Shown here: piece by piece, positions 23,485 to 45,262 of the stretch
Position numbering within the stretch: position 1 is the stretch's first letter
Layout of the letters: each line of letters starts with the position of its first letter
Origin: a virus
Taxonomy: Duplodnaviria; Heunggongvirae; Uroviricota; Caudoviricetes
IMG/VR virus record: IMGVR_UViG_3300036790_000261
Location: 24,725 to 88,724 of that record
Strand: one strand, 5' to 3'
DNA: 64,000 bases
Notes under the pieces: model-generated
Databases searched by the model: none
The model's input: only the letters and a program-made list of their open reading frames with translations
What the model was told of the DNA's origin: nothing
Position numbers and translations under genes: made by a program

Positions 23485-23498
23485 CGGGGGGTACCTGA

Positions 23499-31417: not shown

Positions 31418-31508
31418 ACGCAGGGAGAGTACGTATAGACAGGGCCGCTGCCGCCCGCCCCCGAGCGCACGTTCACCGGGACTTGGTCACAGCACTTGTC
31501 GTCGTCCA

Positions 31509-32447
31509 CTACTTGCCCGCTGAGGCCGTCGGGATGACGATGCCCGACCCGCTGCCGGGCCAGCAGGAGCCGCCTGCCGGGACTGTGATCTGCCCGGCAG
31601 CCCAGGCGCTCATGCACTGCTGCACGAGGACCAGCGGGTTGTTGGCCAGGTTCTGCTCAAGCAGCTTGTTAGCTGCCGCCTGGGCAGATGCCGTCTTCTC
31701 TGCCTCGGTGGCAACGACTGTCTTGGCTGCCTGGTTGGTGGCCGCGTTGATCTGGTTCTGCACGGTGGTGTCGTAGGTCAGGGGCTTGAGGTTGAGGGTC
31801 GCGATGTTGATGTCACTGCCGACCCGTCCCTTCAGCGCTGTCTCGATCAGGCCACCTAGCTGGACTGTGCTCGGATTAGTCGGGCTGCCGGCCTTCGCGC
31901 CTGTGGCAAGCGGGGTGATCGGGTCGTACCCGTCGAGCACGGTGTTGGTGGCGGCGTTCAGCTCCGGGTCTAGCAACCCGCTCTGCAGGCCGGCTGTCGT
32001 CTTGTAGTTCGCGAAGATGTCGTCGGCCGCAGGGACGGCAGCGTTCCACCGAACCTGGACCGTTGCCTGCGCGGTCTGGCCGCCGGCAATGCGGACTGTG
32101 AACGTCTCGTCGGTCAGCTGGTAGCTGTCGTCGATGGTGGTGACGTTGTCCCAGGGCGCAGTCAGGTCGGGCCCTGGACCCTCGTGCCCGGCAAGCGCGC
32201 CGAACGACGTGACGATCCCGATGTCCCGGGTGCCGACGATGTTGAACGAGCTGACAAACACCAGCAGGCAGGTGAAGGCGGCGCAGGAGACAGCGAGGCC
32301 GAATGCCCAGGCATGCACGAGAGCGCCATCGGCCAGGCCACCGCGGGACGTCCTCTTGCCCTTCTCCGAGTGGCTGAGCCGCGCTAGAACAGCGAAGCCG
32401 ACTGTGAACGCCGCGACGATGATCGCGAAGGTGAAAATTCCTGACAC
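31509..32447 (-). CDS. SPFH/band-7 domain membrane protein
   Basis: N-terminal TM helices then SPFH-like core (TRDIGIVTSFGAL...PGPDLTAPWDNVTTIDDSYQ...ATVQVRWN). Confidence 0.5.
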   Translation of the reverse strand: MSGIFTFAIIVAAFTVGFAVLARLSHSEKGKRTSRGGLADGALVHAWAFGLAVSCAAFTCLLVFVSSFNIVGTRDIGIVTSFGALAGHEGPGPDLTAPWDNVTTIDDSYQLTDETFTVRIAGGQTAQATVQVRWNAAVPAADDIFANYKTTAGLQSGLLDPELNAATNTVLDGYDPITPLATGAKAGSPTNPSTVQLGGLIETALKGRVGSDINIATLNLKPLTYDTTVQNQINAATNQAAKTVVATEAEKTASAQAAANKLLEQNLANNPLVLVQQCMSAWAAGQITVPAGGSCWPGSGSGIVIPTASAGK

Positions 32448-33166: not shown

Positions 33167-34999
33167 ATGGGCCTGGCATCGGAGTTCATGGCCTCAGCAC
33201 CGCGCTCTCCTAATGCCAGCGACGCGTGGGCAGAGCGGTACGGCGGGGAGCTGCGCGGGATCGTCACCCGGTACGCCGCGCGGATGCCCCGGTCCGTGCA
33301 GAAGCACCTCGGCCCCTCGGAGCTCGGGCACGAGTGCCTGTCTGGCGACACCGAGGTAGTGACCCGTTACGGTCTCCGTCAGATCTCGGAGCTGGCGGGC
33401 GCTGAGCCCGAACTGCTCGTGCCGATGCGGTACGAGGGAAGCGAGATCCGGAAGCACTGGGGCAGGTTCCAGCAGGTTCCTGTCACCTGCTTCGGTGAGC
33501 GTGAGCTGCTTAAAGTCACACTGCGCCGGAATCAGGCAACGAAAGTCATCCACGCGACGGCAGACCATCACTGGTTCCGTTCGTACTGGTCGGGCAAGGT
33601 CAAGAAGCAGGAACGCCTTGCCACGACTGAGCTGAGACCAGGGCACAAGCTCACGCAGCTCCGCCGGGCGATGCCACGGACGACCGCGCTGATGCCTGTC
33701 GCCGTTGCGCAGGGGTTCGTGTTCGGTGACGGTACGAAGGGCAGCAGTGACAGCAAGCATCGGGCCGCCGTCCTGAGCCTGTACCAGAACGGCAAGGACG
33801 AGGCGATGCTGCGCTTCTTCCCGGGCGAGCACAAGCAGTACAAGGACTCCGGTCACGCGCATACCTACATCCGGAACCTGCCTCGTTACTGGAAGGAGCT
33901 TCCTCCTGTCGATGAGTCTTGCTCGTTCCTGGTCAGCTGGCTGGCCGGCTACTTCGCTGCCGACGGTTCAGTGGGCGCTGATGACGGGCACTGCTCGATC
34001 TCGTCCGCCGACTGGGCGCACCTGGATTTCGTGCGCAGCGTCGCTGCTGTCTGCGGAATCGGGTACGGGCAGGTTACGACTGGGCTGCGCATCGGGATCA
34101 GCGGGAGCAAGCCCGCGGCAAAAGCAACTCCGCTGTACCGGCTCAGCCTCCGGCGCAGAGACCTGCCTGCGTGGTTCTTCCTGGTCGAGGAGCACCGTCG
34201 CCGGGCAGAAACTGCTAACGCTACCGCTGAGCGTGATCCACACTGGCTGGTCGAGTCTGTCGAACCGACGGGCCGCGTTGAGCCGGTGTACTGCGCGACG
34301 GTTGAAGGCGCTCACGCTTTCGGCCTTGCCGATGACCTGATGACAGGCAACTGCGACCGCCAGGTAGTGGCGAAGATGTCGGGCAGCCCAGTTACTAATC
34401 ACGTGGCGGACCCGTGGGCGTCGATCATGGGCACGGCCGGGCACGCGTTCGTCGCGGACGCATTCGACTGGGACAACAAGCACAACAACTACCTGCGCTG
34501 GCTGACTGAGGCACGGGTTACCCCCGACCCCGGTCCCGACCCGCACCCCGGCACCGCTGACCTGTATGACACCTACAGCCGCTGCGTGATCGACCACAAG
34601 TTCCAGGGTGACTCCACCCGGGGCAGGCTGAAGTCCAAGGGCCCGCCGCGGCACTACTACGTGCAGCTGCTGCTCTACCGGCAGGGCTACCTGAACCTGG
34701 GGCTGCCCGTCGAGCGGGTGGTGATCGTCAGCTGGCCGCGAACGAAGTCGACACTGGACGACATGTACGTGTGGTCGCACGTGCCGGTCCCGGAGGACGA
34801 CCTGCTGGTGCGCGACGTGCTGGCGGCGACGGGGTTCCGGCAGTACCTCGCTGCCCTGGTGCGCGCCGGGCAGTTCGACCTGATGGACGTTCCCGCTGTG
34901 CCGGAAGATAACGAGTGCTATTTTTGCGGTCTCTACCGGCCCCAGTCGGCCCATGACGGCAAGTACGGCTGCGCGGGGACGCTGATGAAGGAGAAGTGA
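33167..34999 (+). CDS. Cas4/RecB-family PD-(D/E)XK exonuclease interrupted by an intein
   Basis: Exteins: DLYD...CVIDHKF...YYVQLLLYRQGY (D/ExK and QxxxY motifs) plus 1+3 Cys cluster (GHEC / CYFCG...YGC); intein between. Confidence 0.65.
   Translation: MGLASEFMASAPRSPNASDAWAERYGGELRGIVTRYAARMPRSVQKHLGPSELGHECLSGDTEVVTRYGLRQISELAGAEPELLVPMRYEGSEIRKHWGRFQQVPVTCFGERELLKVTLRRNQATKVIHATADHHWFRSYWSGKVKKQERLATTELRPGHKLTQLRRAMPRTTALMPVAVAQGFVFGDGTKGSSDSKHRAAVLSLYQNGKDEAMLRFFPGEHKQYKDSGHAHTYIRNLPRYWKELPPVDESCSFLVSWLAGYFAADGSVGADDGHCSISSADWAHLDFVRSVAAVCGIGYGQVTTGLRIGISGSKPAAKATPLYRLSLRRRDLPAWFFLVEEHRRRAETANATAERDPHWLVESVEPTGRVEPVYCATVEGAHAFGLADDLMTGNCDRQVVAKMSGSPVTNHVADPWASIMGTAGHAFVADAFDWDNKHNNYLRWLTEARVTPDPGPDPHPGTADLYDTYSRCVIDHKFQGDSTRGRLKSKGPPRHYYVQLLLYRQGYLNLGLPVERVVIVSWPRTKSTLDDMYVWSHVPVPEDDLLVRDVLAATGFRQYLAALVRAGQFDLMDVPAVPEDNECYFCGLYRPQSAHDGKYGCAGTLMKEK
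33335..34351 (+). mobile_element. intein (339 aa) with LAGLIDADG homing endonuclease
   Basis: N-splice CLSGDTEVV, block B TADHH, LAGLIDADG LVSWLAGYFAADGSVG, C-splice VYCATVEGAHAFGLADDLMTGN followed by Cys. Confidence 0.7.
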
Positions 35000-35088
35000 T
35001 GGGGTCTGTCACCTGCCTGCGCGGGTGCCCGTACTACGTTAAGGAGAACGGCGTCTGGGTGTGCGGCGTGTGCAGGACCCTGAGGTAG
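34999..35088 (+). CDS. 29-aa zinc-ribbon peptide
   Basis: ATG overlaps upstream stop; CxxxC...CxxC. Confidence 0.3.
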   Translation: MGSVTCLRGCPYYVKENGVWVCGVCRTLR

Positions 35089-35096
35089 GAGGCGCG

Positions 35097-35348
35097 GTGT
35101 ACCACGCGGAGCTGAACATGAACGAGGCCCGGCGCCGCGTGGTGCTGTCCACCGTCGGGGACACCGTCGCCGGGGACGTCTTCTACCTGGTTTCCGACCC
35201 GGCGGAAGTCTGGCTGCGGGTCTACCCGGCGGCGCACGAGTACCCGTTCGTGAAGTTCGGGGTCGACGTGTGGCACTCGGTCGAGACCCTCGGCGACCTG
35301 CGGGAGCGGGTCATCATCATCCACAACACCAAGGAGAGCAGCACGTGA
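35097..35348 (+). CDS. hypothetical protein
   Basis: GTG with GGTAGGAGG SD. Confidence 0.4.
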   Translation: MYHAELNMNEARRRVVLSTVGDTVAGDVFYLVSDPAEVWLRVYPAAHEYPFVKFGVDVWHSVETLGDLRERVIIIHNTKESST

Positions 35349-36007
35349 CTCAGCAGGGATACCGGCACCGGATCGTCATCCAGGACCGGTCAGGAAGCAT
35401 GGGCCAGATCCTCGAAGGCGCGCAGAGCGGCCTGGACGAGTTCATCGCCGGCGAGGCGAAGCTGCCGGGCAAGGTGACGGTCAGCCTGTGGGACTTCGAT
35501 ACTGAGATCCGCTGCGTGCACTCGCTGGCGGAGGCGGTCCTCGGGTACAAGATCGAGCCGCGCGGCGGAACTGCGATGTACGACGCGATCGGCGACGCGG
35601 TGACCGAAGAGGGCCGGAAGCTCGCGGCCCTGCCCGAGGACGAGCGGCCGGAAGACGTCACGATGATCATCGCGTCCGACGGGCTGGAGAACCGCTCCGT
35701 GAATTACACCGGCCAACAGGTGAGGGAAATGCTGGAGCACCAGCAGGGCTACTACAAGTGGCGGGTCATCTACATGGGCTGCAACCAGGACGCGCTGAAG
35801 GAAGGCGCGAAGATGGGCACCCAGTCGGGGCTGACGGTGAACACGGCTGGCACCAACTCCGGCGCTTCCAGGGGCTGGAAGATGTCATCGGACTACATGA
35901 GCCGGGTTCCCGTTGCCTCGGCGGCCTCCGGTCAGAGCGTCTTCTTCACCCCGAAGGAGCGGGCGCTTGGCGAGTCTGCCGAAGAGGCTGGCCCCGAGGA
36001 GGAGTAG
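35345..36007 (+). CDS. von Willebrand factor A (vWA) domain protein
   Basis: MIDAS DRSGSM, TAMYDAIG, IASDGLEN motifs; GTG with AAGGAGAG SD. Confidence 0.65.
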   Translation: MTQQGYRHRIVIQDRSGSMGQILEGAQSGLDEFIAGEAKLPGKVTVSLWDFDTEIRCVHSLAEAVLGYKIEPRGGTAMYDAIGDAVTEEGRKLAALPEDERPEDVTMIIASDGLENRSVNYTGQQVREMLEHQQGYYKWRVIYMGCNQDALKEGAKMGTQSGLTVNTAGTNSGASRGWKMSSDYMSRVPVASAASGQSVFFTPKERALGESAEEAGPEEE

Positions 36008-36314
36008 CTGCTAGGTTGGCACGCACGGAGCACCTGAACCGAACACCGACAGGCGTAACGTACGACGCTCAAAGTGACAGGTCAGGCAAAAGCTCCCAGG
36101 CGGAGGCAGTGTCCCCAGCGGGCACAGAATTCCCAGCTGACTCATTAACAGGCCTAACAGCCGGGGTCAGCCAGGGCTCAGGAAGTCCTCCAGGGCCAGG
36201 GTAGTTAGGGGCGGCGTCACAGCCAGGTACAAGGCGCCGGCGCCGCCCCGCACAAGGATCAATGCTCACGGACCATGGACAAGCTCAGTTCTCACGGACC
36301 AAGGACAAAGGATC

Positions 36315-37688
36315 TTGACTCAGCAGCCTTACCAGCAGCAGCAGGGATACCCCGGGCAGCCGAATTACGCTCCCGCCCCGGGGTACCCTCCTGCTCAGCC
36401 CGGTTACGCCGTTCAGCCGTACCAGCAGCAGCCTCCCCCTCAGCAGTACTACAGCCCGCAGCCCGCTCCGACCGGGTACCAGCCCCAGCAGCCGGGTTAC
36501 CCGCCGCAGAACGGCTACGGCCAGCCGCCCCAGCCCCCGCAGCCCGAACTGCCGCGCGGCAGCCTCAAGGACTACGTTGACCAGCCCGCGGGCGGCTTCG
36601 GCCCGTCGCTCGCGTTCCCCCAGGCGGGCACCCAGTACTGGTGCACCGTCGCGCGGAACGTCGGCGACGCGGACATCAAGCCGCAGACTGACATGATCAC
36701 CGGCGAGGTGCGGACGTTCCCGGACGGCCGGGTCAAGTGGATGATGTGCGTCCCGGTGCTGATGCAGCCGTCCCCGCAGTACCCGGAGGGCATCGCCACC
36801 TGGTACGTGAAGGGCAACGACCGCGCCGAGATGACCCGCGCGATGGAAGCGGCCGGCGTCGGGATCGACCCAGCGACCGGCACCCTGTTCCCGCCGCGCG
36901 CCGGCGACACCTTCCACGTGCACTTCACCCACGAGTCGGCCAGCAGCGGCAAGGGCCGGAACCCGACGAAGGTCAAGCGGGTCACCTACACGATGGGCAA
37001 CGGCGAGGCCCCGCCCCCGCAGGTCGTGCAGGGCCAGGTCATTCAGGCGTACCAGCAGGCGACGGGTCAGCAGATGCCCGGGGCCTTCAGCCAGCCGACG
37101 ATGCAGATGGCCCAGCCTGCCCTTGCGCAGCCGCAGAACCCGACGCAGCAGCTCCCGCCTGTTCTGCAGGGTTACAACCCCCAGCCGGGCTTCGCCTTTC
37201 AGCAGCCGCAGCTCTCGTACCCGCAGAACCCGCCGCAGCAGCCTCAGTACCAGCAGCCTCAGGTTCAGAACAGCATGCAGGGCGCTCCTGTTCCCCAGAA
37301 CGGTTACCAGCAGCCCGACTCTGCACTGGCGTACCAGCAGGCGACGGGCCAGCAGATGCAGCCTCAGCAGCCGGGCCCGTACGGTCAGCCGAACGCGGAC
37401 TGGAACCCGTACGCGCAGCAGCCTCAGCCTCCCCAGCAGCAGTTCGACCCGGCTCAGGCTCAGCAGTTCCAGCAGCAGTACCAGCAGCCGGCGTTCCCTA
37501 CGCCTGCGCCGCCTGTCCCGGGTGGTCCCCCTTCGGGTCCTGCTCAGCCCTCGGGTGCGCCGTCCCCTTCTAGTCCCCCGCCTGGCTGGCCAGCTGACGT
37601 GCCGTTCATGGAGGGGCTGACCCCGGAGATGGCCCGGGTCGCGGCGTCGGTGAAGTACCCGGGCACGCAGATGCCCCCTCAGCAGTAG
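36315..37688 (+). CDS. Pro/Gln-rich protein with central globular domain
   Basis: Low-complexity PQ-rich N- and C-termini flanking ~200-aa ordered core. Confidence 0.45.
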   Translation: MTQQPYQQQQGYPGQPNYAPAPGYPPAQPGYAVQPYQQQPPPQQYYSPQPAPTGYQPQQPGYPPQNGYGQPPQPPQPELPRGSLKDYVDQPAGGFGPSLAFPQAGTQYWCTVARNVGDADIKPQTDMITGEVRTFPDGRVKWMMCVPVLMQPSPQYPEGIATWYVKGNDRAEMTRAMEAAGVGIDPATGTLFPPRAGDTFHVHFTHESASSGKGRNPTKVKRVTYTMGNGEAPPPQVVQGQVIQAYQQATGQQMPGAFSQPTMQMAQPALAQPQNPTQQLPPVLQGYNPQPGFAFQQPQLSYPQNPPQQPQYQQPQVQNSMQGAPVPQNGYQQPDSALAYQQATGQQMQPQQPGPYGQPNADWNPYAQQPQPPQQQFDPAQAQQFQQQYQQPAFPTPAPPVPGGPPSGPAQPSGAPSPSSPPPGWPADVPFMEGLTPEMARVAASVKYPGTQMPPQQ

Positions 37689-37780
37689 CGAAACGGGCAG
37701 CGGAATGCTCTGGCCGTGCCGTATGTTACGTATGGCGTCGGCCGGAGCATTCTGGCGTCTACTGACTGACAAGGAAACGC

Positions 37781-39106
37781 GTGAACGACGAAGACTACGA
37801 CTGGATGGCTGGCCCTGCCACCGTCCCCCTTGAGCCTGTCCGCTCAGCCCCGCCGTGGGAGCTAGCGACGCTCACCGATACCCCCGTCGTGCCGGGCTGG
37901 CACACCGACACCATGACGATGGCCGCCCCGGGCGACCTGAAGGAGAACGACGATGATACTGCTGCCCGTCGGAGTGACGATCGCGGTCTACTCCGTGCTC
38001 GTGCTCGGGCTCGCCGCTCGCAGGTTCGCCCGGTGGACGCGCCGGATGTGGGCACCCGTACCCTGACGGTTATCGTCCCGGCGTATAACGAGGCGGCCGG
38101 GCTGCCGGAGACGCTGACCTCGGTGATGCGCCAGACCGAGGCGGCTGACCGGGTCCTGGTGGTTGACGACGGCAGCAGTGACGGCACCGCCGAGGTCGCC
38201 CTGGCCTACGGGGCTGAGGTACTGCGCCGGGACCAGTCGTCGGGCAGCAAGTCAGCAGCACTCAACTACGGGCTGCTGGAGTGCGACACCGACCTGGTGC
38301 TGAACGTGGACGGCGACACGGTTATCGCCGACAACTACGTCAAGCTGGTTAAAGCGGCATTCGCCGACCCGATGGTCGCCGTCGCCGCCGGGTCAGTCGG
38401 GGTGTGGAACCCCAAGGGCATCCTGCAGCGCGGGCGCCAGGCGGAGTACCTGCTTAGCTTCCACCTGTTCCGGCCGGTTCAGAACGCCTGGGGATCGCCC
38501 TTGGTGTGCTCGGGCGCGGCATGCGCCTACGACCGTGAGCCATTGGCTGCCGCGGGCGGGTTCCCGGATGACACCGTCGGGGAGGACATGGACTACACCT
38601 GGCGGATGATGCTCGCCGGGCGCAAGGCGGTGTACGTCGCCGGGGCTGAGTGCTACGCCATCGACCCGAAGACGACCGCGCAGCTGCGCACCCAGTTGTG
38701 GCGGTGGATGTCCGGCTACTTCCAGTGCCTGCGACTGCACTGGCGGGAGATCCTCCGGCACAAGAAGCTGCTGGGCTTGCTGGCGGTGCTGTCCGTCATG
38801 GACCTGCTCAGCCTCCCGCTGTGGCTAGCGACCCCGTTCGCGGTAACCGGCAGCGGGCGGGAGATCGCCGAGACGGCACTGCTCTCGCTGGTCGGCACCG
38901 ACCTGCTGATCTCACTGCCTGTCGTCCTAGTCGGCGCGGCCCGGCGCAAGATCAGCATCTGGTGGACGCTAGCGAGCTTCCCGTGCATCTGGGTGCTGCG
39001 GGCGTTCAACGCCTACTACTTCACCAAGGCAATGATCTGGGAGCTGGCCCTCGTCCCGTGCGAGTGGAAGACCAGCCTGTCCGTCTTCAAGAAAGGCCAC
39101 GCGTAA
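37781..39106 (+). CDS. processive family-2 glycosyltransferase (PgaC/IcaA/NodC-like polysaccharide synthase)
   Basis: VIVPAYNEA, DDGSSDGT, NVDGDT (DxD), QLRTQLWRW (QxxRW), C-terminal TM helices; alternative in-frame-shifted N-terminal TM ORF at 37953. Confidence 0.65.
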   Translation: MNDEDYDWMAGPATVPLEPVRSAPPWELATLTDTPVVPGWHTDTMTMAAPGDLKENDDDTAARRSDDRGLLRARARARRSQVRPVDAPDVGTRTLTVIVPAYNEAAGLPETLTSVMRQTEAADRVLVVDDGSSDGTAEVALAYGAEVLRRDQSSGSKSAALNYGLLECDTDLVLNVDGDTVIADNYVKLVKAAFADPMVAVAAGSVGVWNPKGILQRGRQAEYLLSFHLFRPVQNAWGSPLVCSGAACAYDREPLAAAGGFPDDTVGEDMDYTWRMMLAGRKAVYVAGAECYAIDPKTTAQLRTQLWRWMSGYFQCLRLHWREILRHKKLLGLLAVLSVMDLLSLPLWLATPFAVTGSGREIAETALLSLVGTDLLISLPVVLVGAARRKISIWWTLASFPCIWVLRAFNAYYFTKAMIWELALVPCEWKTSLSVFKKGHA

Positions 39107-39108
39107 AC

Positions 39109-39630
39109 ATGAAGTACACAATCACCGTCCTGCAAGACGACATCGACAAGGGCGTACCCAGCAGTGCCAGAAAGTGCGCTATCGCCCTCGCCGCTAAGCG
39201 CGAGCTGTTCGTTGACGACCTCTGCGTCAACGGCCTGGGCATCGAAACCCCCACAGAACGCGGCAGGCTGCCCTCCGAAGCTCGGGCCTTCATCCCGAAG
39301 TTCGACCAGAAGCTGCCCGTCGAGCCGTTCAAGTTCGAGATCGACATGGGGCCCAAGCCCCCGGTTATGGCGTATCAGGGGCAAGATCCGTACTACAACG
39401 ATTACCAGAAGCTTGTCGATTACCAGAAGCTTGTCGTAGGCGGCTTCGACACGCTCAAGTACGAGCCGTTCACGTTCGACGCGTTCGACGCGATCCAGGA
39501 CGACTACGCCAAGCACACCGAGCCGTTCCAGCCCAAGTACACCGCGCACGCCTCGAACGAGTACGTCAACGACATGATCCCGTCGTTCGCGCCGGGTGGC
39601 CCGGTCCAGGTCCAAGGGGGCACAGCGTGA
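39109..39630 (+). CDS. hypothetical protein with in-frame 18-bp tandem duplication
   Basis: ATG 39109; DYQKLV duplicated (39400-39435). Confidence 0.45.
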   Translation: MKYTITVLQDDIDKGVPSSARKCAIALAAKRELFVDDLCVNGLGIETPTERGRLPSEARAFIPKFDQKLPVEPFKFEIDMGPKPPVMAYQGQDPYYNDYQKLVDYQKLVVGGFDTLKYEPFTFDAFDAIQDDYAKHTEPFQPKYTAHASNEYVNDMIPSFAPGGPVQVQGGTA

Positions 39631-40577
39631 AACTTCTCCTACGGCGCCTGACCGTGCTCACGCTCGCCGCGGTTCTCGTCGCCGGGCTCGGTTCCCTGGT
39701 GGCCTGGAAGCTCGGCAAGTTCAGCGGCACCCCGGTTACCGCTTCTGCCAGCGCCGCTAGCGTCTTCAGCCAGCAGGCGTACCTTGCCAGTAGTAACTGG
39801 CAGCAGGGTACGGCTCTTAGCAACGCGAGTGCGGTGCCGCCGGACGGCAAGTGGCCGGTTACCCTGCCGAAGGTCGCCAAGGGCCTGCCGGTGCTGGACA
39901 ACAGCTGCTCGAACGGCTACGTCACGTTCACGTTCGACGACGGGCCGGACCAGTACACGCTGCCGCTGGCGGCGGAGCTGCTGGCGGAGCACGTCCCGGC
40001 GGTGTTCTTCGAGATCGGCGACAAGGTGGCGGAGAACCCGGGCATCACGAGGCTGCTGGCGAAGAACCACTTCGTGATCGGGAACCACACCTACAACCAC
40101 GAGGACCTGACCGGGGCCGCGAACAAGACCAAGCCGCTGACCGCTGCCCAGGTAGCGACGGAGCTGACCCGGGCAACCGCGGCGATCGTCACGGCCGGGG
40201 CACCGGTTCCTACCCTGTGGCGGCCTCCGTACGGTGACGTCAACACAGCGTACGCCGCGGTCGCGAAGAGCCTCGGCTTGCGGCTGGTGATGTCCTGGTC
40301 AAACGACGGGACGATCATCGACAACGAGGACTGGACGAACGCCCCGGCGGCGAAGATCGTCAGCAGTGTCACCCGCTCAGCCGTGCCCCTGCGCAACGGG
40401 GTGATCGTCGCCGGCCACGACGGCATCGGGAACACGGTGAACACCGTCAAGGCGATACCGGAGATCGTCGCGTTCATGAACAGGCACCACCTGTGCGCCA
40501 CCGCTAAGGTTCGCCCGGACGCAACCGGCGCGGTGCTCACCGGGGGCACGGCGCCTACGGGTAACGCCGGCGGCTGA
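39627..40577 (+). CDS. polysaccharide deacetylase (CE4/NodB-homology) with N-terminal membrane anchor
   Basis: TFDDGP, GNHTYNH, LWRPPYG CE4 motifs; signal/TM anchor. Confidence 0.7.
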   Translation: MKLLLRRLTVLTLAAVLVAGLGSLVAWKLGKFSGTPVTASASAASVFSQQAYLASSNWQQGTALSNASAVPPDGKWPVTLPKVAKGLPVLDNSCSNGYVTFTFDDGPDQYTLPLAAELLAEHVPAVFFEIGDKVAENPGITRLLAKNHFVIGNHTYNHEDLTGAANKTKPLTAAQVATELTRATAAIVTAGAPVPTLWRPPYGDVNTAYAAVAKSLGLRLVMSWSNDGTIIDNEDWTNAPAAKIVSSVTRSAVPLRNGVIVAGHDGIGNTVNTVKAIPEIVAFMNRHHLCATAKVRPDATGAVLTGGTAPTGNAGG

Positions 40578-40593
40578 GGTCAGCAGAAGGCGA

Positions 40594-41472
40594 ATGCTCG
40601 CCCTGGTGGCGGGTGCGGCAGTGAGTACAGTACTGAGAAGCGACGACTCCTGGAGGAGCAGCATGCCCCGCACCCGTCACCCGCATCCACGGCCGAACCC
40701 GCACCCGGGGCCGCACCCCCACCCGCATCCTCAGCCGAAGCCGCCCGTCCCCCCGGTTACCCCGCCCCCGGTGCCGCCGACTCCTCCTGCCGGGCAGTAC
40801 CTGTGGAACCCGTCGTTCGCCGGGGCGGCCGGGACGCTGCCGAGCACCGCGGACTGGAATTTCATCACCGGGGCGGGCGCGGAGGTCGGCGGGAACAACG
40901 AGACCGAGACCTACGTCAAGTCAGCCAGCAACTCTTACCTGGACGGCAACGGGAACCTGGTTCTCGCGGTCACCAAGGGGCTGAACAGCGCCCGGCTGAC
41001 CAGTAAGTTCAGTGTCGGGCCGGGTACCTCCTGGGAAGCCGAGATCACGCTGGACAACGTGCAGGGCTGCTGGCCGGCGTTCTGGTTCATGAGCACGACG
41101 GCCGGGCCGTACCCGAAGAACTGGTGCGAGGTCGACGTCTGCGAGAGCTACGGCGAGGGCATCGTTGACAGCACCGTCTGGAACGGCAACGCCAGCACCG
41201 GCGTGTCAGACTCCCAGTGGGCGACGGACAGCAAGCCGCACGTCTTCCGGATGGACAACGCGGGCACCTCGATCTCGGTGTACCGCGACAACGTCCTGGT
41301 GAACACGGCGAGCGCGAAGAACTGCTCACCGTGGCTGTACGGCAACGCCGAGCTGTTCTGCATCCTGAACATCGCCACCGACGGCACCGGGACGCAGAAC
41401 GTCAACCCCAACCCGGCGGACCTGCCGTCCACGATGACCGTCGGGTACGTCCGCGCCTTCGAGATGGCGTAG
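40594..41472 (+). CDS. glycoside hydrolase family 16-like protein with Pro-rich linker
   Basis: EVDVCE catalytic motif (ExDxxE); HPHP/PPVPP linker; N-terminal hydrophobic segment. Confidence 0.55.
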   Translation: MLALVAGAAVSTVLRSDDSWRSSMPRTRHPHPRPNPHPGPHPHPHPQPKPPVPPVTPPPVPPTPPAGQYLWNPSFAGAAGTLPSTADWNFITGAGAEVGGNNETETYVKSASNSYLDGNGNLVLAVTKGLNSARLTSKFSVGPGTSWEAEITLDNVQGCWPAFWFMSTTAGPYPKNWCEVDVCESYGEGIVDSTVWNGNASTGVSDSQWATDSKPHVFRMDNAGTSISVYRDNVLVNTASAKNCSPWLYGNAELFCILNIATDGTGTQNVNPNPADLPSTMTVGYVRAFEMA

Positions 41473-41541
41473 CCGGGGCCATACCGCTGGCTAAGCACAC
41501 CCGTGTCAACGCCCCGCTCCCCGCTACTCCTAGGAGATCTC

Positions 41542-41955
41542 ATGCTCAAGAAACTGCTCGCCGTCGCTACCGCGGCGCCCCTCGTAGCGCTCGGCGTTCA
41601 GGTGACTGCCAGCGCCGCGGTCAGGCCGAAGCCGCTGCTCGTGTGCACGGCTACCGTCTCGAGTCAGCACCCGGTGGACTACAGCACGGTTGTCACGACT
41701 GTACGCGTCGGGGCTGCCGGGATAAAGACGGCGGTGACGGCTAATTACAAGACCGTGCGCACCACCATGACGGGCGTCTCTGTCCTTCAGCCTGTCGGTG
41801 ACATGCGTTTTGCGTACCTCGCGCACGCCCCGTTCAAGATCAGCGACGCCAAGCCGGGCTACAAGGTACAGGTGAACGCGGTGGTGAGCCGTCCGGGGTG
41901 GCGCTCGGGTAGCTGCTCGACCTGGTTCATCCCGCAGGCGAAGCCGAAGCGCTAA
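41542..41955 (+). CDS. secreted hypothetical protein
   Basis: Signal peptide MLKKLLAVATAAPLVALGVQVTASAA; SD GGAG upstream. Confidence 0.45.
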   Translation: MLKKLLAVATAAPLVALGVQVTASAAVRPKPLLVCTATVSSQHPVDYSTVVTTVRVGAAGIKTAVTANYKTVRTTMTGVSVLQPVGDMRFAYLAHAPFKISDAKPGYKVQVNAVVSRPGWRSGSCSTWFIPQAKPKR

Positions 41956-41970
41956 CTGCCGCGTGGCAGT
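41955..41970. promoter_or_regulatory. conserved palindrome variant ACTGCCGCGTGGCAGT (copy 4)
   Basis: Directly after stop of secreted-protein gene. Confidence 0.45.
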
Positions 41971-42086
41971 CACAGACGGGTCCGGGCAGGCTCCTACCGC
42001 AGGACCACTGGAAGCCCGGACCGGCACGTAAGGCGACGGCCGTCTCTGGCAGCGGGGCGGCCGTCGCCGCGCTAGGAAGGAACAGG

Positions 42087-42278
42087 ATGACCAAGGAAGA
42101 GATGATCGCCGCGATGGCGGAGCTGATCGCCGGGCTGCAGGTGCCGATGTCGATGTCGATGCCGCTCGGCGCGGCGAAGGACCCGTGGACGAGGCTGCAC
42201 CGGGGGCTGCACGGCTTCGGGTGGGCGACAGCGGAGGACTACGAGCACGCGATCAGGGCCGTGCTCATGACGAGGTAA
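42087..42278 (+). CDS. hypothetical protein
   Basis: ATG with GAAGGAACAGG SD. Confidence 0.4.
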   Translation: MTKEEMIAAMAELIAGLQVPMSMSMPLGAAKDPWTRLHRGLHGFGWATAEDYEHAIRAVLMTR

Positions 42279-42335
42279 CGGGCGCATCCGTAGCGGGCTA
42301 ATGAAGGAACGAAAAACCAGAGAGGGCACGCCCTG

Positions 42336-42485
42336 CTACGGGTGCACCCAGGGGCGCCAGGCGAACACGCCCTCGATCGCCAGGCAGGCCAGGGCGGCGC
42401 TGACGATGGCGAGGTCGTGGTCACCCTTGATCCATGACACGATCGCCGCAATGACAAACAGCACGAACGCAGCAACACCGAACAT
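42336..42485 (-). CDS. 49-aa two-helix membrane peptide (below ORF-track cutoff)
   Basis: MFGVAAFVLFVIAAIVSW...AALACLAIEGVFAW; good GC3. Confidence 0.3.
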   Translation of the reverse strand: MFGVAAFVLFVIAAIVSWIKGDHDLAIVSAALACLAIEGVFAWRPWVHP

Positions 42486-42537
42486 GACGGGCACCTTTCT
42501 ATAGGTTCCCCTCAGCTACCCACAGGAAGAGGATCAC

Positions 42538-42723
42538 ATGCAAGCCACGGAGAACGAGGTTATCGAGCAGCAGTGGGTGCAGGACATGCCGATGGCGATC
42601 CGGGTCAAGAAGAACCTGGTCGGGGCCGCCGCGTCCCAGGGGCTGGTGATCGGCATCGTGCCGGACGGGGACAACAAGACCCGCGGGTTCTTCGTCACCA
42701 TTGAGCGGCCCGCCCGTGTCTGA
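42538..42723 (+). CDS. hypothetical protein
   Basis: ATG with AGGAAGAGGA SD. Confidence 0.4.
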   Translation: MQATENEVIEQQWVQDMPMAIRVKKNLVGAAASQGLVIGIVPDGDNKTRGFFVTIERPARV

Positions 42724-42841
42724 GCCGACGTGCGACTACTGCTCTCAGGGCGCCAACGACAAAGGCCCGGTCCGGCTGTACGACGGCGGCTTCACCCACG
42801 CGCACGCCGAGTGCTACAAGAAGGCGAAGGGGCGCGCGTGA
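42716..42841 (+). CDS. 41-aa zinc-finger-like peptide
   Basis: CDYC...HAEC; GTG overlapping upstream stop. Confidence 0.3.
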   Translation: MSEPTCDYCSQGANDKGPVRLYDGGFTHAHAECYKKAKGRA

Positions 42842-43062
42842 GCCGGCCGAACTCCCGGCTGACCCGGGTGCGCAGGCGCCTGGTGAAGCTTCTGGACCCG
42901 TGGCCGCCGGTACACGAGGCGTGGTGCATCGGCTGCGCGCAGAACGGCGGGCGCACCCTGGTGCTCGGCGCGAACGCAGTTTACGATCACGTTGCCCTGC
43001 ACACGAGCTGCAAAGAGGTCGTGAGGGTCAGGGTGCAGACCCCGGCTCAGGAGGAAGCGTGA
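42838..43062 (+). CDS. small hypothetical protein
   Basis: GTGA overlap chain. Confidence 0.3.
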   Translation: MSRPNSRLTRVRRRLVKLLDPWPPVHEAWCIGCAQNGGRTLVLGANAVYDHVALHTSCKEVVRVRVQTPAQEEA

Positions 43063-43232
43063 ACGACCGGCTGACCGAGAACCTGGATGACCAGGTCTGG
43101 TATGCGATAAAGCTGATCAAGGAGCACGAGTACACCGACGGCGAGCACCATAAGCAGTGGGTGCTCAACCAGGTGCTGCTGCTCCTGACCGGCGGGGCCG
43201 AGCACCTGGAAGACGAGGGGACCATCCCGTGA
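43059..43232 (+). CDS. small hypothetical protein
   Basis: GTGA overlap chain. Confidence 0.3.
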   Translation: MNDRLTENLDDQVWYAIKLIKEHEYTDGEHHKQWVLNQVLLLLTGGAEHLEDEGTIP

Positions 43233-43423
43233 AGACAGCCGACGAGCACGGAGAGCGTTCCTGCGACGAGACGGTCGCCCTGCTCGACAACCCCAGCGAG
43301 CCTGAATTCGCCGTCGTCCTGCGCTGCAACGCGCTGTACCACACGCCGTACGCCGACTGCCCGGCAGAGCACTACGACCCGGACTACAGGCTCGCCTGGC
43401 GTTCAGCTGGCGGGAAGGTGTAA
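43229..43423 (+). CDS. small hypothetical protein
   Basis: GTGA overlap chain. Confidence 0.3.
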   Translation: MKTADEHGERSCDETVALLDNPSEPEFAVVLRCNALYHTPYADCPAEHYDPDYRLAWRSAGGKV

Positions 43424-45262
43424 GTGACCACTGTCTTCGGGGAGCTTGACCCGACGGGGGAGTTCATCCTCGTCACGGTGGTGGGCGGCGGGGATCATGA
43501 GCGGGCCCAGTGCGCGGCGCTGCTGCAGGCCATGACCCCCGCCATCAACCCGACGGCGAACCCGGAGGTGATCGCGGTCCCGCTGTCCTGGTCGGCGGTC
43601 ACCCAGCTGGCGCACGACTTCACCGGGGAGCCTGCGTGGGACGGGCGGCCGGGGCTAGCCTGGACCCCGGGAGAGCAGCTGTGCAAGTGGCTGCTGGCGG
43701 AGATCATCCGCCGCTCGTGCGACGGGGACTGGGTCGGTGAGTGGCCGAAGCGGGAGCCGATGGCGCACCAGCGGGCGGGCGGGATCGCCGTCGGGATGAA
43801 CGGGCGGTTCCTGTTCGTCGACGACATGGGCACAGGTAAGGGCGGCTGCTACCTGATGGGCCTGGCCGGGCTGGAGGCACGTAACCGGAACCCGTGGCCC
43901 GCGCTGTTCGTCTGCCCGGCCAGCGTGGTGGACACCATCCTGGAGGAGGTCCCGTTCTGGTACCCCGACTGGAAGGCGGTCGCTTACCGCGGCACCGGGC
44001 GGCAGAAGTACCTGAAGTCGAACGCGCGCATCCTGGTGATGGGGTACGAGACGATGCGCAACGACACCGGGGACTCAGCTAAGCCGGGGCCGCTGCTGAA
44101 GCTGAACGCGGGCACGCTGATCGGCGACGAGTGCCACATGCTCTGCAATTACGACAGCCTGCAGTCGCGCAAGTTCCGGCTGCTGGCTAAGCACGTGCGG
44201 AACGTGGTCCCCGGGTCGGGCACGCCGATCACCGTGAACGCGGCGGGCTTCTGGCCGGTGCTGAACTCGATGTACCCGGGCAGCTACCCGAGCCGGGACC
44301 GGTACAAGAAGTACTACTGCATAGGGCGCAAGGCGCAGTACGGCAACGGGGACCGGGAGGTCACCGGGATCAACCCGCTGCGCGACAAGCAGTTCCGGGC
44401 CGAGATGCAGGGGGTGTTCCGCCGGGTCGCCCTTGAAGACGTGTGGGACATGCCGCCGAAGTCCTACCAGGTGCGGTACGTGGAGATCCCGGCTGCCTGG
44501 CGGGCTGCGTACAACCAGATGGAAGAGGACATGCTGGCGGAGCTGCCCGACCAGATGACCCCGCTGGAGGCGAACGTCGCGGTGGTGAAGATGATGCGGC
44601 TGCGGCAGCTGGCCTGCTCGGCGTGCGACGTCGAGGTCACCCGGGAGATCGAGATGAACCTGCGGTCACCGAAGTACGGTACCGAGGTGGCGCGCACTAA
44701 GGTCACCTTGAAGGAGCCGTGCTGGAAGGGCGCCGCACTGGTTTCGCTGCTCGACGAGCTGCACCAGGCTGAGGGCGAGCACGACGAGCTCGGCAGGCAG
44801 TACGGGCACACCGTCGGGTCGCGTCCGGTACTCGCGTTCGCCGAGTCATCTCAGCTAGTCAGGGTGGCCGGGGCGATGGCGGAGAAGAAGGGGTACACCG
44901 TCGGGTACTTCGACGGGGACGTGAAGAACAAGGACCGGACTGCGGCCCGGCTCGCGTTCCAGGACAATAAACTCGACCTGCTGTGCGTTACGACAGGGGC
45001 GGGCGGTGTCGGGCTGAACCTAACTGCGGCCGGCGACGTGGCGTTCCTGGCTAACCCGTGGGGGTACGTGCCCCGGGTGCAGTCCGAGCGGCGGGCATGG
45101 CGCCGCGGGCAGGACAAGCCGGTGATGATCTACGACTTCGTTACCAAGGACAGCGTTGAGAGCCGGGTGGCGGCGCGGCTGCGGGAGAAGGCAGTGAACT
45201 TGGCGGATTTGGTGCAAGATCGCCGGATCGCGGAAGAGTTCTTGGGGGGCAACAAGCACTAG
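43424..45262 (+). CDS. SNF2/RAD54-family helicase
   Basis: DEAH-box LIGDECHMLCN, helicase C motif VI RAWRRGQDKPVMIYDFV. Confidence 0.75.
   Translation: MTTVFGELDPTGEFILVTVVGGGDHERAQCAALLQAMTPAINPTANPEVIAVPLSWSAVTQLAHDFTGEPAWDGRPGLAWTPGEQLCKWLLAEIIRRSCDGDWVGEWPKREPMAHQRAGGIAVGMNGRFLFVDDMGTGKGGCYLMGLAGLEARNRNPWPALFVCPASVVDTILEEVPFWYPDWKAVAYRGTGRQKYLKSNARILVMGYETMRNDTGDSAKPGPLLKLNAGTLIGDECHMLCNYDSLQSRKFRLLAKHVRNVVPGSGTPITVNAAGFWPVLNSMYPGSYPSRDRYKKYYCIGRKAQYGNGDREVTGINPLRDKQFRAEMQGVFRRVALEDVWDMPPKSYQVRYVEIPAAWRAAYNQMEEDMLAELPDQMTPLEANVAVVKMMRLRQLACSACDVEVTREIEMNLRSPKYGTEVARTKVTLKEPCWKGAALVSLLDELHQAEGEHDELGRQYGHTVGSRPVLAFAESSQLVRVAGAMAEKKGYTVGYFDGDVKNKDRTAARLAFQDNKLDLLCVTTGAGGVGLNLTAAGDVAFLANPWGYVPRVQSERRAWRRGQDKPVMIYDFVTKDSVESRVAARLREKAVNLADLVQDRRIAEEFLGGNKH

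What the first reader, a model, noticed from the sequence alone, without database searches (positions are those of the whole stretch)
35345..41955. Phage-borne exopolysaccharide synthase/deacetylase module (vWA, PQ-rich protein, processive GT2, CE4 deacetylase, GH16, secreted protein)
Gene 37781-39106 carries the signature of processive beta-glycosyltransferases: DxD plus QxxRW (QLWRW) plus C-terminal TM helices, as in PgaC/IcaA/NodC, cellulose, chitin or hyaluronan synthases. Two genes downstream is a membrane-anchored CE4 polysaccharide deacetylase (TFDDGP / GNHTYNH / WRPPYG), the classic partner (PgaB/IcaB/NodB). A GH16-like hydrolase and a signal-peptide protein follow. Together they could synthesise, de-N-acetylate and trim a PNAG- or chitin-like surface polymer on the host during infection or lysogeny. 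Possible roles are superinfection exclusion, biofilm or aggregation changes, or receptor masking. I have not seen a complete synthase plus deacetylase plus hydrolase set like this described in an actinophage.
Basis: partly seen in the sequence, partly recalled or inferred. Interest (0 to 1): 0.75.

Follow-up and report, generated by a model that had tools for sequence, protein, structure and literature searches.

The report
Phage-borne surface-polysaccharide synthase cassette
An uncultured large phage of filamentous actinobacteria carries a three-enzyme set (a membrane sugar-polymer synthase, an outward-facing deacetylase and a glucanase-type hydrolase) that probably builds a sugar polymer on the infected cell; related phages keep the same kind of set, sometimes with swapped parts, and I found no report of it in phages.

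Summary
Window 37781-41472 encodes, on the + strand and tightly packed:
- a GT2 with an invariant DD / DxD / ED / QxxRW and a cellulose/hyaluronan-synthase-like fold;
- a 173-aa protein of unknown function;
- a membrane-anchored CE4 with all five catalytic motifs;
- a GH16 with an intact ExDxxE.

The window is a novel tailed phage. The exact proteins lie on a 122-kb contig binned as Trebonia sp.

GT2-CE4-GH16 sits at the same locus, between the exonuclease and SNF2 helicase genes, in at least five related contigs of about 84-122 kb. In one of them (L178) the GT2 is a different lineage, which indicates cassette swapping. Other viral contigs pair PgaC-like GT2s with a PgaB-type deacetylase plus GH16.

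Among 80 cellular homologues of the GT2, only one has an adjacent CE4 and one an adjacent GH16.

- The CE4 is NodB/MatB-like, not PgaB/IcaB-like.
- The GH16 is laminarinase-like, from a Tat-exported family.
- The GT2 has no N-terminal TM helices and no PgaD/IcaD partner.
- The vWA protein, the PQ-rich protein and the 150-aa secreted protein are neighbours, not demonstrable parts.

The polymer is unknown. A HexNAc polymer is inferred; PNAG is unproven.

The parts
37781..39106 (+). Membrane GT2 synthase-like glycosyltransferase, 441 aa. Residues 1-90 are a disordered N-terminal extension with a PPWE motif; 94-298 form the GT-A domain; 299-424 form four long helices (QLWRW interface helix plus 2-3 TM helices).
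39109..39630 (+). 173-aa soluble protein of unknown function between the GT2 and the CE4, with start/stop overlaps on both sides. Optional accessory: present in L005/L006, absent in L003, L011 and L178.
   Evidence: phrog_19191, 1.9e-12, function unknown. No Pfam or NCBIfam hit. Distribution.
39627..40577 (+). CE4 (NodB-homology) polysaccharide deacetylase, 316 aa. N-terminal membrane anchor (residues 8-26), a linker of about 65 aa, and the catalytic domain at 95-303, which is inferred to lie outside the cytoplasm.
   Evidence: Pfam 2.7e-25. PDB 2cc0 2e-24 with all five motifs aligned. NodB model 82 bits, below cut-off. Hydropathy. Motif coordinates.
40594..41472 (+). GH16 laminarinase-like glycoside hydrolase, 292 aa from ATG 40594. 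It has a short hydrophobic N-terminus, a Pro/His-rich linker and a beta-jelly-roll domain with EVDVCE.
   Evidence: Pfam 7.7e-8. PDB beta-1,3-glucanases 2hyk 3e-24 and 9vmv 4.5e-23. Invariant E179/D181/E184. Homologues carry Tat signals. In this copy the RRR codons lie in frame just upstream of the first canonical start.
41503..41955 (+). Small secreted protein of unknown function (Sec signal; the NCBI call starts at M14). Found only in this phage, so its membership of the module is doubtful.
   Evidence: Hydropathy. No family hit. tblastn finds it only in the window and in L001, its own contig.
36315..37688 (+). PQ-rich protein, 457 aa: a conserved globular core of about 160 aa and a conserved C-terminal WPADVPF..GLT motif, flanked by P/Q/Y-rich low-complexity tracts. 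It is an upstream neighbour in all lineage members, but nothing links it to glycan chemistry.
   Evidence: Alignment A3. No family hits. Synteny. No TM segment.
35345..36007 (+). Stand-alone vWA (MIDAS) protein, 220 aa. A neighbour, not part of the glycan module.
   Evidence: phrog_7371, 7e-38, function unknown. More than 9000 representative clusters. Profile hits integrin I-domains; D14, S16, S18, T76 and D112 invariant. Absent from the L003 and L011 loci.

Best explanation
Genes 37781-41472 form a phage-encoded, synthase-dependent surface-glycan cassette that is expressed in the infected actinomycete.

Proposed mechanism:
1. The GT2 sits in the cytoplasmic membrane with its catalytic domain inside the cell. 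Using a UDP-sugar, most likely UDP-GlcNAc or another HexNAc, it polymerises a beta-linked chain by the inverting D,DxD,ED,QxxRW mechanism shared with PgaC/IcaA, MatB, NodC, hyaluronan synthase and cellulose synthase.
2. It passes the chain outward, probably as an oligomer or with host help.
3. The membrane-anchored CE4 outside the membrane removes some N-acetyl groups, which would make the polymer cationic and adhesive.
4. The exported GH16 cleaves or re-ligates the chain (trimming, release or transglycosylation), as the dedicated hydrolases of other synthase-dependent systems do.
5. The result is a new or altered carbohydrate layer on the infected hypha.

The benefit to the phage is inferred only. 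Candidates are masking of receptors against superinfection, protection or aggregation of the infected cell, or avoiding loss of progeny on cell debris.

Shown: enzyme families, catalytic residues, fold, topology signals, conserved synteny and cassette swapping.
Inferred: the sugar, the export step, the role of the GH16 and the biological purpose.
For: **1. GT2**
- Pfam GT2 models, and PgaC_IcaA as the best of 23 NCBIfam models.
- 37% identity to the GT2 domain of MatB-type PNAG synthases (E 3e-41) and 26% to E. coli PgaC (E 5e-25).
- The GSKSAALN motif resembles the GK(A/P)xALN of PgaC and MatB in those alignments.
- All catalytic motifs are invariant in 59 homologues.

**2. CE4**
- All five CE4 motifs align to SlCE4 2cc0.
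- It has an N-terminal anchor.
- It is the same type of CE4 as the extracellular domain of MatB (PMC5972031).

**3. GH16**
- The catalytic triad is invariant.
- Family members have Tat or lipoprotein signals.

**4. Gene linkage**
- The genes are tightly packed, with overlapping or adjacent starts and stops.
- GT2-CE4-GH16 is syntenic in L003/L004, L005/L006, L011 and the window.
- In L178, a phage of the same lineage, a different GT2 (28% identity) sits with a CE4 and a GH16 at the same locus.
- L179 and L094 carry a PgaC-like GT2, a PgaB/IcaB-type deacetylase and a GH16.
- The GT2-CE4 pair is also adjacent in two chromosomal islands rich in mobile-element genes.

**5. General pattern and precedent**
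- Synthase-dependent exopolysaccharide operons typically include a modifying enzyme and a hydrolase. This is established knowledge (review PMC4432689 was listed but not read).
- Viral precedent: chloroviruses make hyaluronan or chitin on infected algae, and also encode a beta-1,3-glucanase and polysaccharide deacetylases (PMC5408694).
Against: - The GT2 has no N-terminal TM helices, only 2-3 C-terminal ones, and no PgaD/IcaD-like partner. Its second-best structural match is PcManGT, which has a comparably small membrane part. A translocation channel is therefore not demonstrated.
- All equivalog scores are far below cut-off.
- In 78 of 80 cellular loci the GT2 family stands alone, without a CE4 or a GH16. 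The family's native product therefore need not be a deacetylated polymer.
- By sequence the GH16 is a beta-1,3-glucanase relative. To my knowledge no GH16 is known to cleave PNAG.
- The window's own GH16 lacks a canonical start codon upstream of its twin-arginine codons, so its export is uncertain.
- There are no expression or biochemical data, and the phage is uncultured.
Confidence: 0.55

Rival explanations
1. The GT2 is not a polymer-exporting synthase. It would make a short oligosaccharide, as NodC does, or glycosylate a lipid or another membrane-bound acceptor, as the minimal cellulose-synthase-like enzyme PcManGT or the GT21, HpnI and CruG-type enzymes do. The CE4 then deacetylates that glycoconjugate outside the cell. 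The outcome would be a modified cell-envelope glycolipid or wall glycopolymer, that is, serotype-conversion-like receptor editing rather than an exopolysaccharide.
For: - There are only 2-3 TM helices and no N-terminal TM.
- There is a weak Glyco_transf_21 hit.
- NodC and MftF models also match.
- The GT2 family is a stand-alone gene in most genomes.
Against: - The best family model and the closest functionally studied relatives are PNAG synthases.
- An endo-acting GH16 and a deacetylase as constant partners are more typical of polymer systems.
Confidence: 0.22
2. The CE4 and the GH16 are secreted degradative enzymes, either auxiliary metabolic genes or exit/entry enzymes. They would attack pre-existing polymers: host hyphal-tip or sheath beta-glucan, peptidoglycan GlcNAc, or fungal and plant debris. 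The GT2 would be functionally separate. For example, the GH16 could act as a receptor-destroying or wall-loosening enzyme, and the CE4 could modify peptidoglycan.
For: - The GH16 is closest to true beta-1,3-glucanases.
- The CE4 is closest to an acetylxylan/chitooligosaccharide esterase and to peptidoglycan deacetylases.
- GH16, CE4 and GT2 are each listed among soil-virus auxiliary CAZymes (PMC6460857).
- Chlorovirus glucanase and deacetylase are interpreted as wall-degrading or metabolic.
Against: - The three genes stay adjacent and in the same order even where each has diverged to 28-42% identity or been replaced (L178, L179, L094).
- The GT2-CE4 pair also recurs in chromosomal islands.
- The CE4 is membrane-anchored rather than freely secreted.
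Confidence: 0.15
3. The genes glycosylate phage particles or phage proteins, as mycobacteriophage-encoded glycosyltransferases do for capsids and tails, rather than the host surface.
For: Many actinophages encode GT2-type glycosyltransferases, and the distant tblastn hits are annotated 'glycosyltransferase'. That mycobacteriophage virions are glycosylated is from my own knowledge.
Against: - The GT2 is an integral membrane protein with a synthase-type QxxRW helix.
- The CE4 and the GH16 are extracytoplasmic.
- The cassette lies in the replication/early-type region, between the exonuclease and the SNF2 helicase, not among the structural genes.
Confidence: 0.04

Closest known systems
Streptomyces MatAB PNAG system (MatB: extracellular CE4 domain, TM helix, intracellular GT2)
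   Same: - Host phylum: Actinomycetota.
- The same pairing of a PgaC-like GT2 with a canonical NodB/PgdA-type CE4 outside the membrane (PMC5972031).
- GT2 37% identical (E 3e-41) and CE4 29% identical (E 3e-19) to a MatB-type protein.
   Different: - Here the two activities are separate genes.
- The GT2 belongs to a different, uncharacterised clade with no N-terminal TM.
- There is no MatA homologue and no IcaC-like acyltransferase.
- A GH16 is added.
- The cassette is on a phage.
PgaABCD / IcaADBC poly-beta-1,6-GlcNAc machinery
   Same: A GT2 with D,DxD,ED,QxxRW is the best family match. The logic of synthase plus de-N-acetylase plus hydrolase activity is shared.
   Different: - 105 bits against a cut-off of 422.
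- 26% identity to PgaC.
- No PgaD/IcaD, and no PgaA porin.
- The CE4 is unrelated to PgaB beyond the TFDDG motif.
- The hydrolase is a GH16, not GH153 or GH20.
- Sister cassettes in L094 and L179 do use a PgaB/IcaB-type deacetylase.
Chlorovirus hyaluronan and chitin synthases (PBCV-1 A098R HAS; CVK2 CHS), with virus-encoded beta-1,3-glucanase and polysaccharide deacetylase
   Same: - A virus-encoded membrane GT2 synthase that coats the infected cell with a polysaccharide.
- The same viruses also carry a beta-1,3-glucanase and CE4-type genes.
   Different: - Those are eukaryotic giant viruses.
- Their HAS has N-terminal TM helices.
- Sequence identity is about 20%.
- The chlorovirus review treats the synthases, the glucanase and the deacetylase as separate topics and does not present them as one cassette.
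Rhizobial NodC/NodB
   Same: A GT2 (QxxRW) paired with a canonical CE4. NodB is the best CE4 model (82 bits) and NodC matches at 69 bits.
   Different: NodB is cytoplasmic and acts on short chitooligosaccharides. Here the CE4 is membrane-anchored and faces outward. Both scores are far below the cut-offs (240 and 550).
Phage serotype-conversion modules (GtrABC, O-acetylases)
   Same: Phage genes that alter host surface glycans. The likely purpose, blocking superinfection, is shared.

Membership tests
Membrane-embedded processive GT2 synthases (BcsA, HAS, PgaC, NodC, Chs type) | GT-A domain with the nucleotide-binding D/DD motif and a DxD motif | tested here: met
   VVDDGS 127-132 and VDGDT 176-180. 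D129, D130, D177 and D179 are invariant or nearly so in 59 homologues. Pfam GT2 models.
Membrane-embedded processive GT2 synthases (BcsA, HAS, PgaC, NodC, Chs type) | Catalytic-base (T/G)ED motif and a Q(Q/R)xRW motif on an interface helix | tested here: met
   GEDMD 267-271 and QLWRW 305-309. E268, D269, Q305, R308 and W309 are invariant. The QxxRW lies at the start of model helix 299-327.
Membrane-embedded processive GT2 synthases (BcsA, HAS, PgaC, NodC, Chs type) | Overall fold, including interface and TM helices, superposes on solved synthases better than on single-addition GT2s | tested here: met
Membrane-embedded processive GT2 synthases (BcsA, HAS, PgaC, NodC, Chs type) | A transmembrane channel sufficient to translocate the polymer (typically 5-8 TM helices, or a partner subunit) | tested here: inconclusive
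   There are only 2 strong TM segments plus 1 weaker one, no N-terminal TM, and no small membrane partner in the cassette. Oligomerisation was not tested.
Membrane-embedded processive GT2 synthases (BcsA, HAS, PgaC, NodC, Chs type) | Processive synthesis of a polymer from a UDP-sugar | not testable with these tools
   Needs biochemistry.
PNAG synthase PgaC/IcaA (TIGR03937 equivalog) | Score above the curated equivalog cut-off | tested here: not met
   105.1 bits against a cut-off of 422.3. Only model positions 42-287 of 407 matched.
PNAG synthase PgaC/IcaA (TIGR03937 equivalog) | Small membrane co-subunit (PgaD/IcaD) encoded alongside | tested here: not met
   The 173-aa protein has no TM segment, and no other small membrane ORF is called in the cassette.
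CE4 / NodB-homology metal-dependent deacetylases | Five motifs in canonical order: TFDD, H(S/T)xxH, RxPY, DxxDW, LxH | tested here: met
   TFDDGP, HTYNH, RPPYG, DNEDW and AGHDG are present in that order, aligned to 2cc0. Pfam 89 bits against a cut-off of 23.
PgaB/IcaB-type PNAG deacetylases | Sequence membership (TIGR03938 / TIGR03933), similarity to PgaB | tested here: not met
   No PgaB or IcaB model among the CE4's NCBIfam hits. BLASTP against E. coli PgaB gives E 0.075, over the TFDDG motif only.
GH16 (laminarinase-like subgroup) | Beta-jelly-roll domain with the catalytic ExDx(x)E | tested here: met
   Pfam 32.4 bits against a cut-off of 22. 2hyk 3e-24 over residues 69-291. E179, D181 and E184 are invariant.
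GH16 (laminarinase-like subgroup) | Hydrolysis of beta-1,3-glucan | not testable with these tools
   Substrate unknown. No CAZy subfamily assignment was run.
Streptomyces MatAB | Bifunctional CE4-TM-GT2 protein, with MatA encoded upstream | tested here: not met
   The two activities are on separate genes. A MatA-like protein (L096) has no match in the window better than E about 1.
vWA domain (for gene 35345-36007) | MIDAS residues DxSxS...T...D and profile similarity to vWA / I-domains | tested here: met
   D14, S16, S18, T76 and D112 are invariant in 40 relatives. The profile hits integrin I-domains, the best at E 1.1e-3. Weak: no Pfam hit.

The most novel reading that the evidence does not exclude
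A lineage of phages of about 115-120 kb infecting filamentous actinomycetes, together with other large actinophage-like elements, keeps a hypervariable 'glycan-coat' locus. At this locus interchangeable cassettes of synthase, deacetylase and GH16 re-coat the infected hypha with a phage-specified polymer. The GH16 would be a previously unrecognised partner enzyme, either a hydrolase or a transglycosylase that grafts the chain onto the wall. A shared N-terminal PPW(E/D) peptide would direct the phage glycosyltransferases to a common host factor. The locus would act as a diversifying superinfection-exclusion or receptor-masking system, a prokaryotic counterpart of the chlorovirus hyaluronan and chitin coats.
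Probability: 0.25. Interest if true: 0.85.

Novelty: new variant of a known kind. Interest (0 to 1): 0.66.

Why it matters
Phages are known to edit host surface glycans by adding side groups, as in serotype conversion. Giant algal viruses are known to spin hyaluronan or chitin on infected cells.

A complete synthase, deacetylase and hydrolase cassette in a bacteriophage would add a new way for phages to remodel the bacterial surface. Here it is conserved across a lineage and exchanged as a unit. Possible consequences include effects on superinfection, hyphal aggregation and pellet formation in actinomycetes, soil aggregate chemistry, and the interpretation of 'CAZyme auxiliary metabolic genes' in soil viromes. 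Those genes are usually read as carbon-degrading enzymes.

The finding also gives a first functional context to a widespread but uncharacterised GT2 family of Streptomyces, Nonomuraea and other bacteria. It points to an unexpected pairing of GH16 enzymes with PNAG-like and cellulose-like synthases.

All of this is directly testable by heterologous expression.

Tried and rejected
- **Megablast of the whole region against INPHARED phages:** no match. tblastn of the putative terminase-position ORF also found nothing, so the phage has no cultured relative there.
- **tblastn of the GT2, CE4 and GH16 against the phage collection:** only distant hits below 35% identity. Many were in unannotated or evidently bacterial records labelled as phage. 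They were not used as precedent.
- **PQ-rich protein:** no Pfam, PHROG, NCBIfam or PADLOC hits. Single-sequence AF2 of its core gave pLDDT 35, which is unusable, so no fold search was run.
- **p173 and the 150-aa secreted protein:** no informative hits.
- **MatA-like partner:** none in the window.
- **PADLOC defence models:** none for any of the 8 proteins.
- **Promoter and terminator scan of 34900-43500:** nothing above shuffled expectation.
- **Repeat scan:** only the low-complexity PQ codon repeats, plus a 40-nt similarity between the starts of the vWA and PQ genes.
- **CE4-GH16 frameshift fusion:** considered as an explanation for the start-less Tat codons. Rejected as topologically senseless, but the question is unresolved.
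- **Literature:** nine full-text searches found no report of a phage-borne synthase/deacetylase/GH16 set. One apparent 'pgaC' hit was a DOI string.

Full report
**What is in the window**

The 64-kb window is a high-GC (about 66%) genome of a tailed phage. It carries:
- a 1626-aa tape-measure protein and a head-tail adaptor;
- a RecB/Cas4-type exonuclease, an SNF2 helicase and a DNA methyltransferase;
- four tRNAs.

Megablast against 50,697 phage records finds nothing.

The GT2 and CE4 proteins are identical to proteins on a 122,349-nt contig of GenBank assembly GCA_036490375.1, a MAG labelled Trebonia sp.. Related contigs are 114.6-122 kb long. One genome was assembled twice independently at nearly the same length, 116,771 and 116,733 nt. 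From this I infer free phage genomes of about 115-120 kb rather than prophages.

**The genes of the finding**

All of them are on the + strand:

| Coordinates | Size | Product |
|---|---|---|
| 35345-36007 | 220 aa | vWA protein |
| 36315-37688 | 457 aa | PQ-rich protein |
| 37781-39106 | 441 aa | GT2 |
| 39109-39630 | 173 aa | unknown |
| 39627-40577 | 316 aa | CE4 |
| 40594-41472 | 292 aa | GH16 |
| 41503-41955 | 150 aa | secreted protein |

From the GT2 to the 150-aa gene the spacing is -4 to +30 nt, which is operon-like.

**GT2**

- Pfam: Glyco_tranf_2_3 1e-29, Glycos_transf_2 1e-27, Glyco_trans_2_3 5e-21.
- Of 23 NCBIfam models, PgaC_IcaA is best at 105 bits. MftF (88), NodC (69) and CelA (53) follow. 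All are far below the equivalog cut-offs.
- The motifs VVDDGS, VDGDT, GEDMD and QLWRW are invariant in alignments of 15 and 59 homologues.
- An AlphaFold model built on the 59-sequence alignment has mean pLDDT 83.6. Residues 1-90 are disordered. Residues 94-298 form a GT-A domain. Four long helices span 299-424.
- Direct BLASTP gives 37% identity to the GT2 domain of a MatB-type bifunctional protein (E 3e-41) and 26% to E. coli PgaC (E 5e-25).

Two caveats remain. There is no N-terminal TM helix and only two or three C-terminal ones. There is also no PgaD/IcaD-like partner. Export of a polymer by this protein alone is unproven.

**CE4**

- Pfam Polysacc_deac_1, 2.7e-25.
- The best solved relative is Streptomyces lividans acetylxylan esterase 2cc0 (2e-24). 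All five CE4 motifs align to it in canonical order.
- NodB, PdaB and PgdA models match below cut-off. No PgaB or IcaB model matches.
- E. coli PgaB shows no significant similarity.
- Residues 8-26 form a hydrophobic anchor, followed by a linker of about 65 residues. This places the catalytic domain outside the membrane.
- This arrangement mirrors the extracellular CE4 domain of Streptomyces MatB, the PNAG synthase/deacetylase whose CE4 domain is also closest to PgdA and NodB (PMC5972031). The phage CE4 is 29% identical to a MatB-type CE4 domain (E 3e-19).

**GH16**

- Pfam 7.7e-8.
- There are clear matches to actinobacterial beta-1,3-glucanases: 2hyk 3e-24, 9vmv 4.5e-23 and 3atg 3e-22. Mycobacterial Rv0315-type proteins also match.
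- E179, D181 and E184 (EVDVCE) are invariant in 12 homologues.
- Relatives carry twin-arginine signals, some with lipoboxes: P0243, P0246, P0248, L094 GH16a and the L178 GH16.
- In the window the homologous RRR codons are in frame, but they lie just upstream of the first canonical start. That start is ATG 40594, preceded by GAAGG. L005 and L011 show the same oddity.
- Export is therefore well supported for the family but uncertain for this particular copy.

**Conservation and linkage**

The order GT2 - (optional small gene) - CE4 - GH16 sits between the exonuclease and SNF2 helicase genes in several contigs:
- L003/L004, 116.7 kb;
- L005/L006;
- L011, IMG/VR, 84 kb;
- the window.

In these relatives the GT2 is 58-65% identical, the CE4 56-60%, the GH16 only about 32%, and the SNF2 helicase 70-90%. 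A second GH16 subtype, closer to the window's (77-86% identical), occurs on further contigs. One is a 114.6-kb contig. Another is the 30.9-kb contig that also carries P0005 (GT2) and P0123 (CE4).

L178 (IMG/VR, 117 kb) is the most telling case. It clearly belongs to the same lineage: exonuclease 73%, vWA 54%, PQ 49%, SNF2 75%. At the same position it carries a different GT2, only 28% identical, whose best model is again PgaC_IcaA. A CE4 (37%) and a GH16 (42%) with a canonical Tat signal follow. The function of the locus is kept while its parts are exchanged.

Other viral or mobile-element contigs show the same pattern:
- L179 and L094 carry a PgaC-like GT2, a PgaB/IcaB-type deacetylase (PDB 4u10 3e-9; TIGR03938 65 bits) and a GH16.
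- L094, L177 and L180 carry cellulose-synthase-like GT2s next to GH16 genes.

In cellular genomes the picture differs. The window-type GT2 family is widespread: Streptomyces, Nonomuraea and Actinomadura at 42-50% identity, and Phycisphaerales, Gemmatimonadota and archaea at 31-39%. Only 1 of 80 loci has an adjacent CE4 and only 1 an adjacent GH16-like gene. In about 14 Streptomyces and Nonomuraea loci the upstream neighbour is a secreted S8 peptidase. Two chromosomal GT2-CE4 pairs lie among integrase, transposase and recombinase genes. The trio is therefore a feature of phages and mobile elements, not ordinary host cargo.

**Neighbours that are probably not part of the module**

- The vWA call is right. 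The MIDAS residues are invariant and a family profile hits integrin I-domains. However, the protein belongs to a family of more than 9000 representative clusters of stand-alone proteins of about 210 aa, phrog_7371, of unknown function. It is absent from the L003 and L011 loci.
- The PQ-rich protein is always nearby, but it has no family hit, no TM segment and no usable model.
- The 150-aa secreted protein is unique to this phage.
- L003 and L178 instead have a homologous secreted protein of 345 or 438 aa upstream of the GT2.

The locus is therefore a variable island built around the three enzymes.

**Mechanism**

The best-supported reading is a synthase-dependent surface-glycan cassette:
- a cytoplasmic-face GT2 polymerises a beta-linked chain;
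- the outward-facing CE4 partly deacetylates it;
- an exported GH16 trims or re-ligates it.

A HexNAc polymer is inferred from three points. Both PgaC-like GT2 lineages are paired with de-N-acetylases of two different types. The cassette contains no acetyltransferase that could create O-acetyl substrates for a CE4. MatB is the closest functionally studied relative. The beta-1,6 linkage (PNAG) is not established. The laminarinase-like GH16 argues for caution, because the linkage could be beta-1,3, or the GH16 could act on a host glucan.

The purpose is speculative. Candidates are receptor masking or superinfection exclusion, aggregation or protection of the infected hypha, and avoiding adsorption of progeny to debris. 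The chlorovirus coats, the nearest viral precedent, still have no proven role.

**Comparison with what is known, and novelty**

Synthase/deacetylase/hydrolase systems are well known: Pga, Ica, Mat and, in a looser sense, NodBC. Virus-encoded surface polysaccharide synthases are known in chloroviruses. GT2, CE4 and GH16 each appear individually in soil-virome lists of auxiliary genes.

I found no cultured phage with close relatives of these genes, and no paper describing such a cassette in a phage.

I rate it a new variant of a known kind:
- phage-borne;
- a split, MatB-like pair;
- a GT2 from an uncharacterised clade without N-terminal TM helices;
- a GH16 as the constant third partner;
- cassette swapping at a fixed locus.

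Interest is 0.66. All evidence is computational and the phage is uncultured.

Noticed in passing
window 33167-34999 (+); intein about 33335-34351: The RecB/Cas4-type exonuclease gene (phrog_1674) is 610 aa here, against 263-271 aa in the related phages L003 and L005. The extra 339 aa begin CLSGDTEV and end LMTGN, followed by Cys, and give a weak LAGLIDADG_3 hit. This looks like an intein with a homing endonuclease inserted at GHE|C.
   Followed up: partly
window 40561-40662; L005 about 12671-12811; L011 about 12269-12373; L003 12456-12626: A conserved twin-arginine-type signal peptide ((S/T)RRxF/L followed by a hydrophobic stretch; a lipobox LLAGC in L011) is encoded in frame upstream of the annotated GH16 start. 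No ATG, GTG or TTG precedes it in the window, L005 or L011. Homologues P0243, P0246, P0248 and L178 do have canonical starts. A non-canonical initiation codon or reinitiation after the CE4 stop codon is possible.
   Followed up: partly
window 37850-37861 (GT2 residues 24-27); L003 10085; L005 10070; L011 10061; L094 5605 and 9025: A short N-terminal motif, PPW(E/D)x(E/A/D)T, lies about 20-28 residues from the start. It is shared by the window-type phage GT2s, by an only 29%-identical GT2 in L094, and by an unrelated GT-C (PMT_2-like) glycosyltransferase in L094. A six-frame regex scan of the window and eight related loci found only one further occurrence, in a Pro-rich 103-codon reverse-strand ORF of L003. 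It could be a common targeting or partner-binding peptide.
   Followed up: partly
L094 4710-12890 (JGI 3300081967, 167-kb contig): A larger glycan cluster on another mobile-element or phage-like contig. In order: GH16 (Tat lipoprotein), PgaC-like GT2, PgaB/IcaB-type deacetylase, GH16, GT-C (PMT_2-like), cellulose-synthase-like GT2 (HKKAGN, QQYRW), GH16.
   Followed up: partly
L007 8516-11158 and about 13 further Streptomyces/Nonomuraea loci (L098-L128, L154): In actinomycete chromosomes the stand-alone homologue of this GT2 usually lies directly downstream of a secreted subtilisin-like S8 peptidase with an I9 inhibitor domain. The pairing is conserved and unexplained.
   Followed up: no
window 35328-35367 and 36298-36337: The translation-initiation regions of the vWA gene and the PQ-rich gene are 73% identical over 40 nt (ACCAAGGA...TGACTCAGCAG). 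Both proteins start MTQQ (family D10).
   Followed up: no
window 30899-32447 (- strand): Two minus-strand genes are embedded among plus-strand phage genes. They encode a Band_7/SPFH protein (31509-32447) and an Rv2632c-like protein (30899-31354), and they are conserved in L005/L006. They may be moron or host-interaction genes.
   Followed up: no
window 18250-27464 (+): Two very large tail-region ORFs of 1744 and 1321 aa. The homologue of the second in related phages carries Laminin_G_3 and Gly_rich_2 domains, so it is a candidate glycan-binding receptor-recognition protein. This is relevant if the cassette masks a carbohydrate receptor.
   Followed up: no
window 39109-39630 (+): The 173-aa protein wedged between the GT2 and the CE4 overlaps its neighbours at start and stop. 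It matches only phrog_19191, of unknown function. It is present in the closest relatives (L005/L006, 60-62% identity) and absent from L003, L011 and L178.
   Followed up: partly
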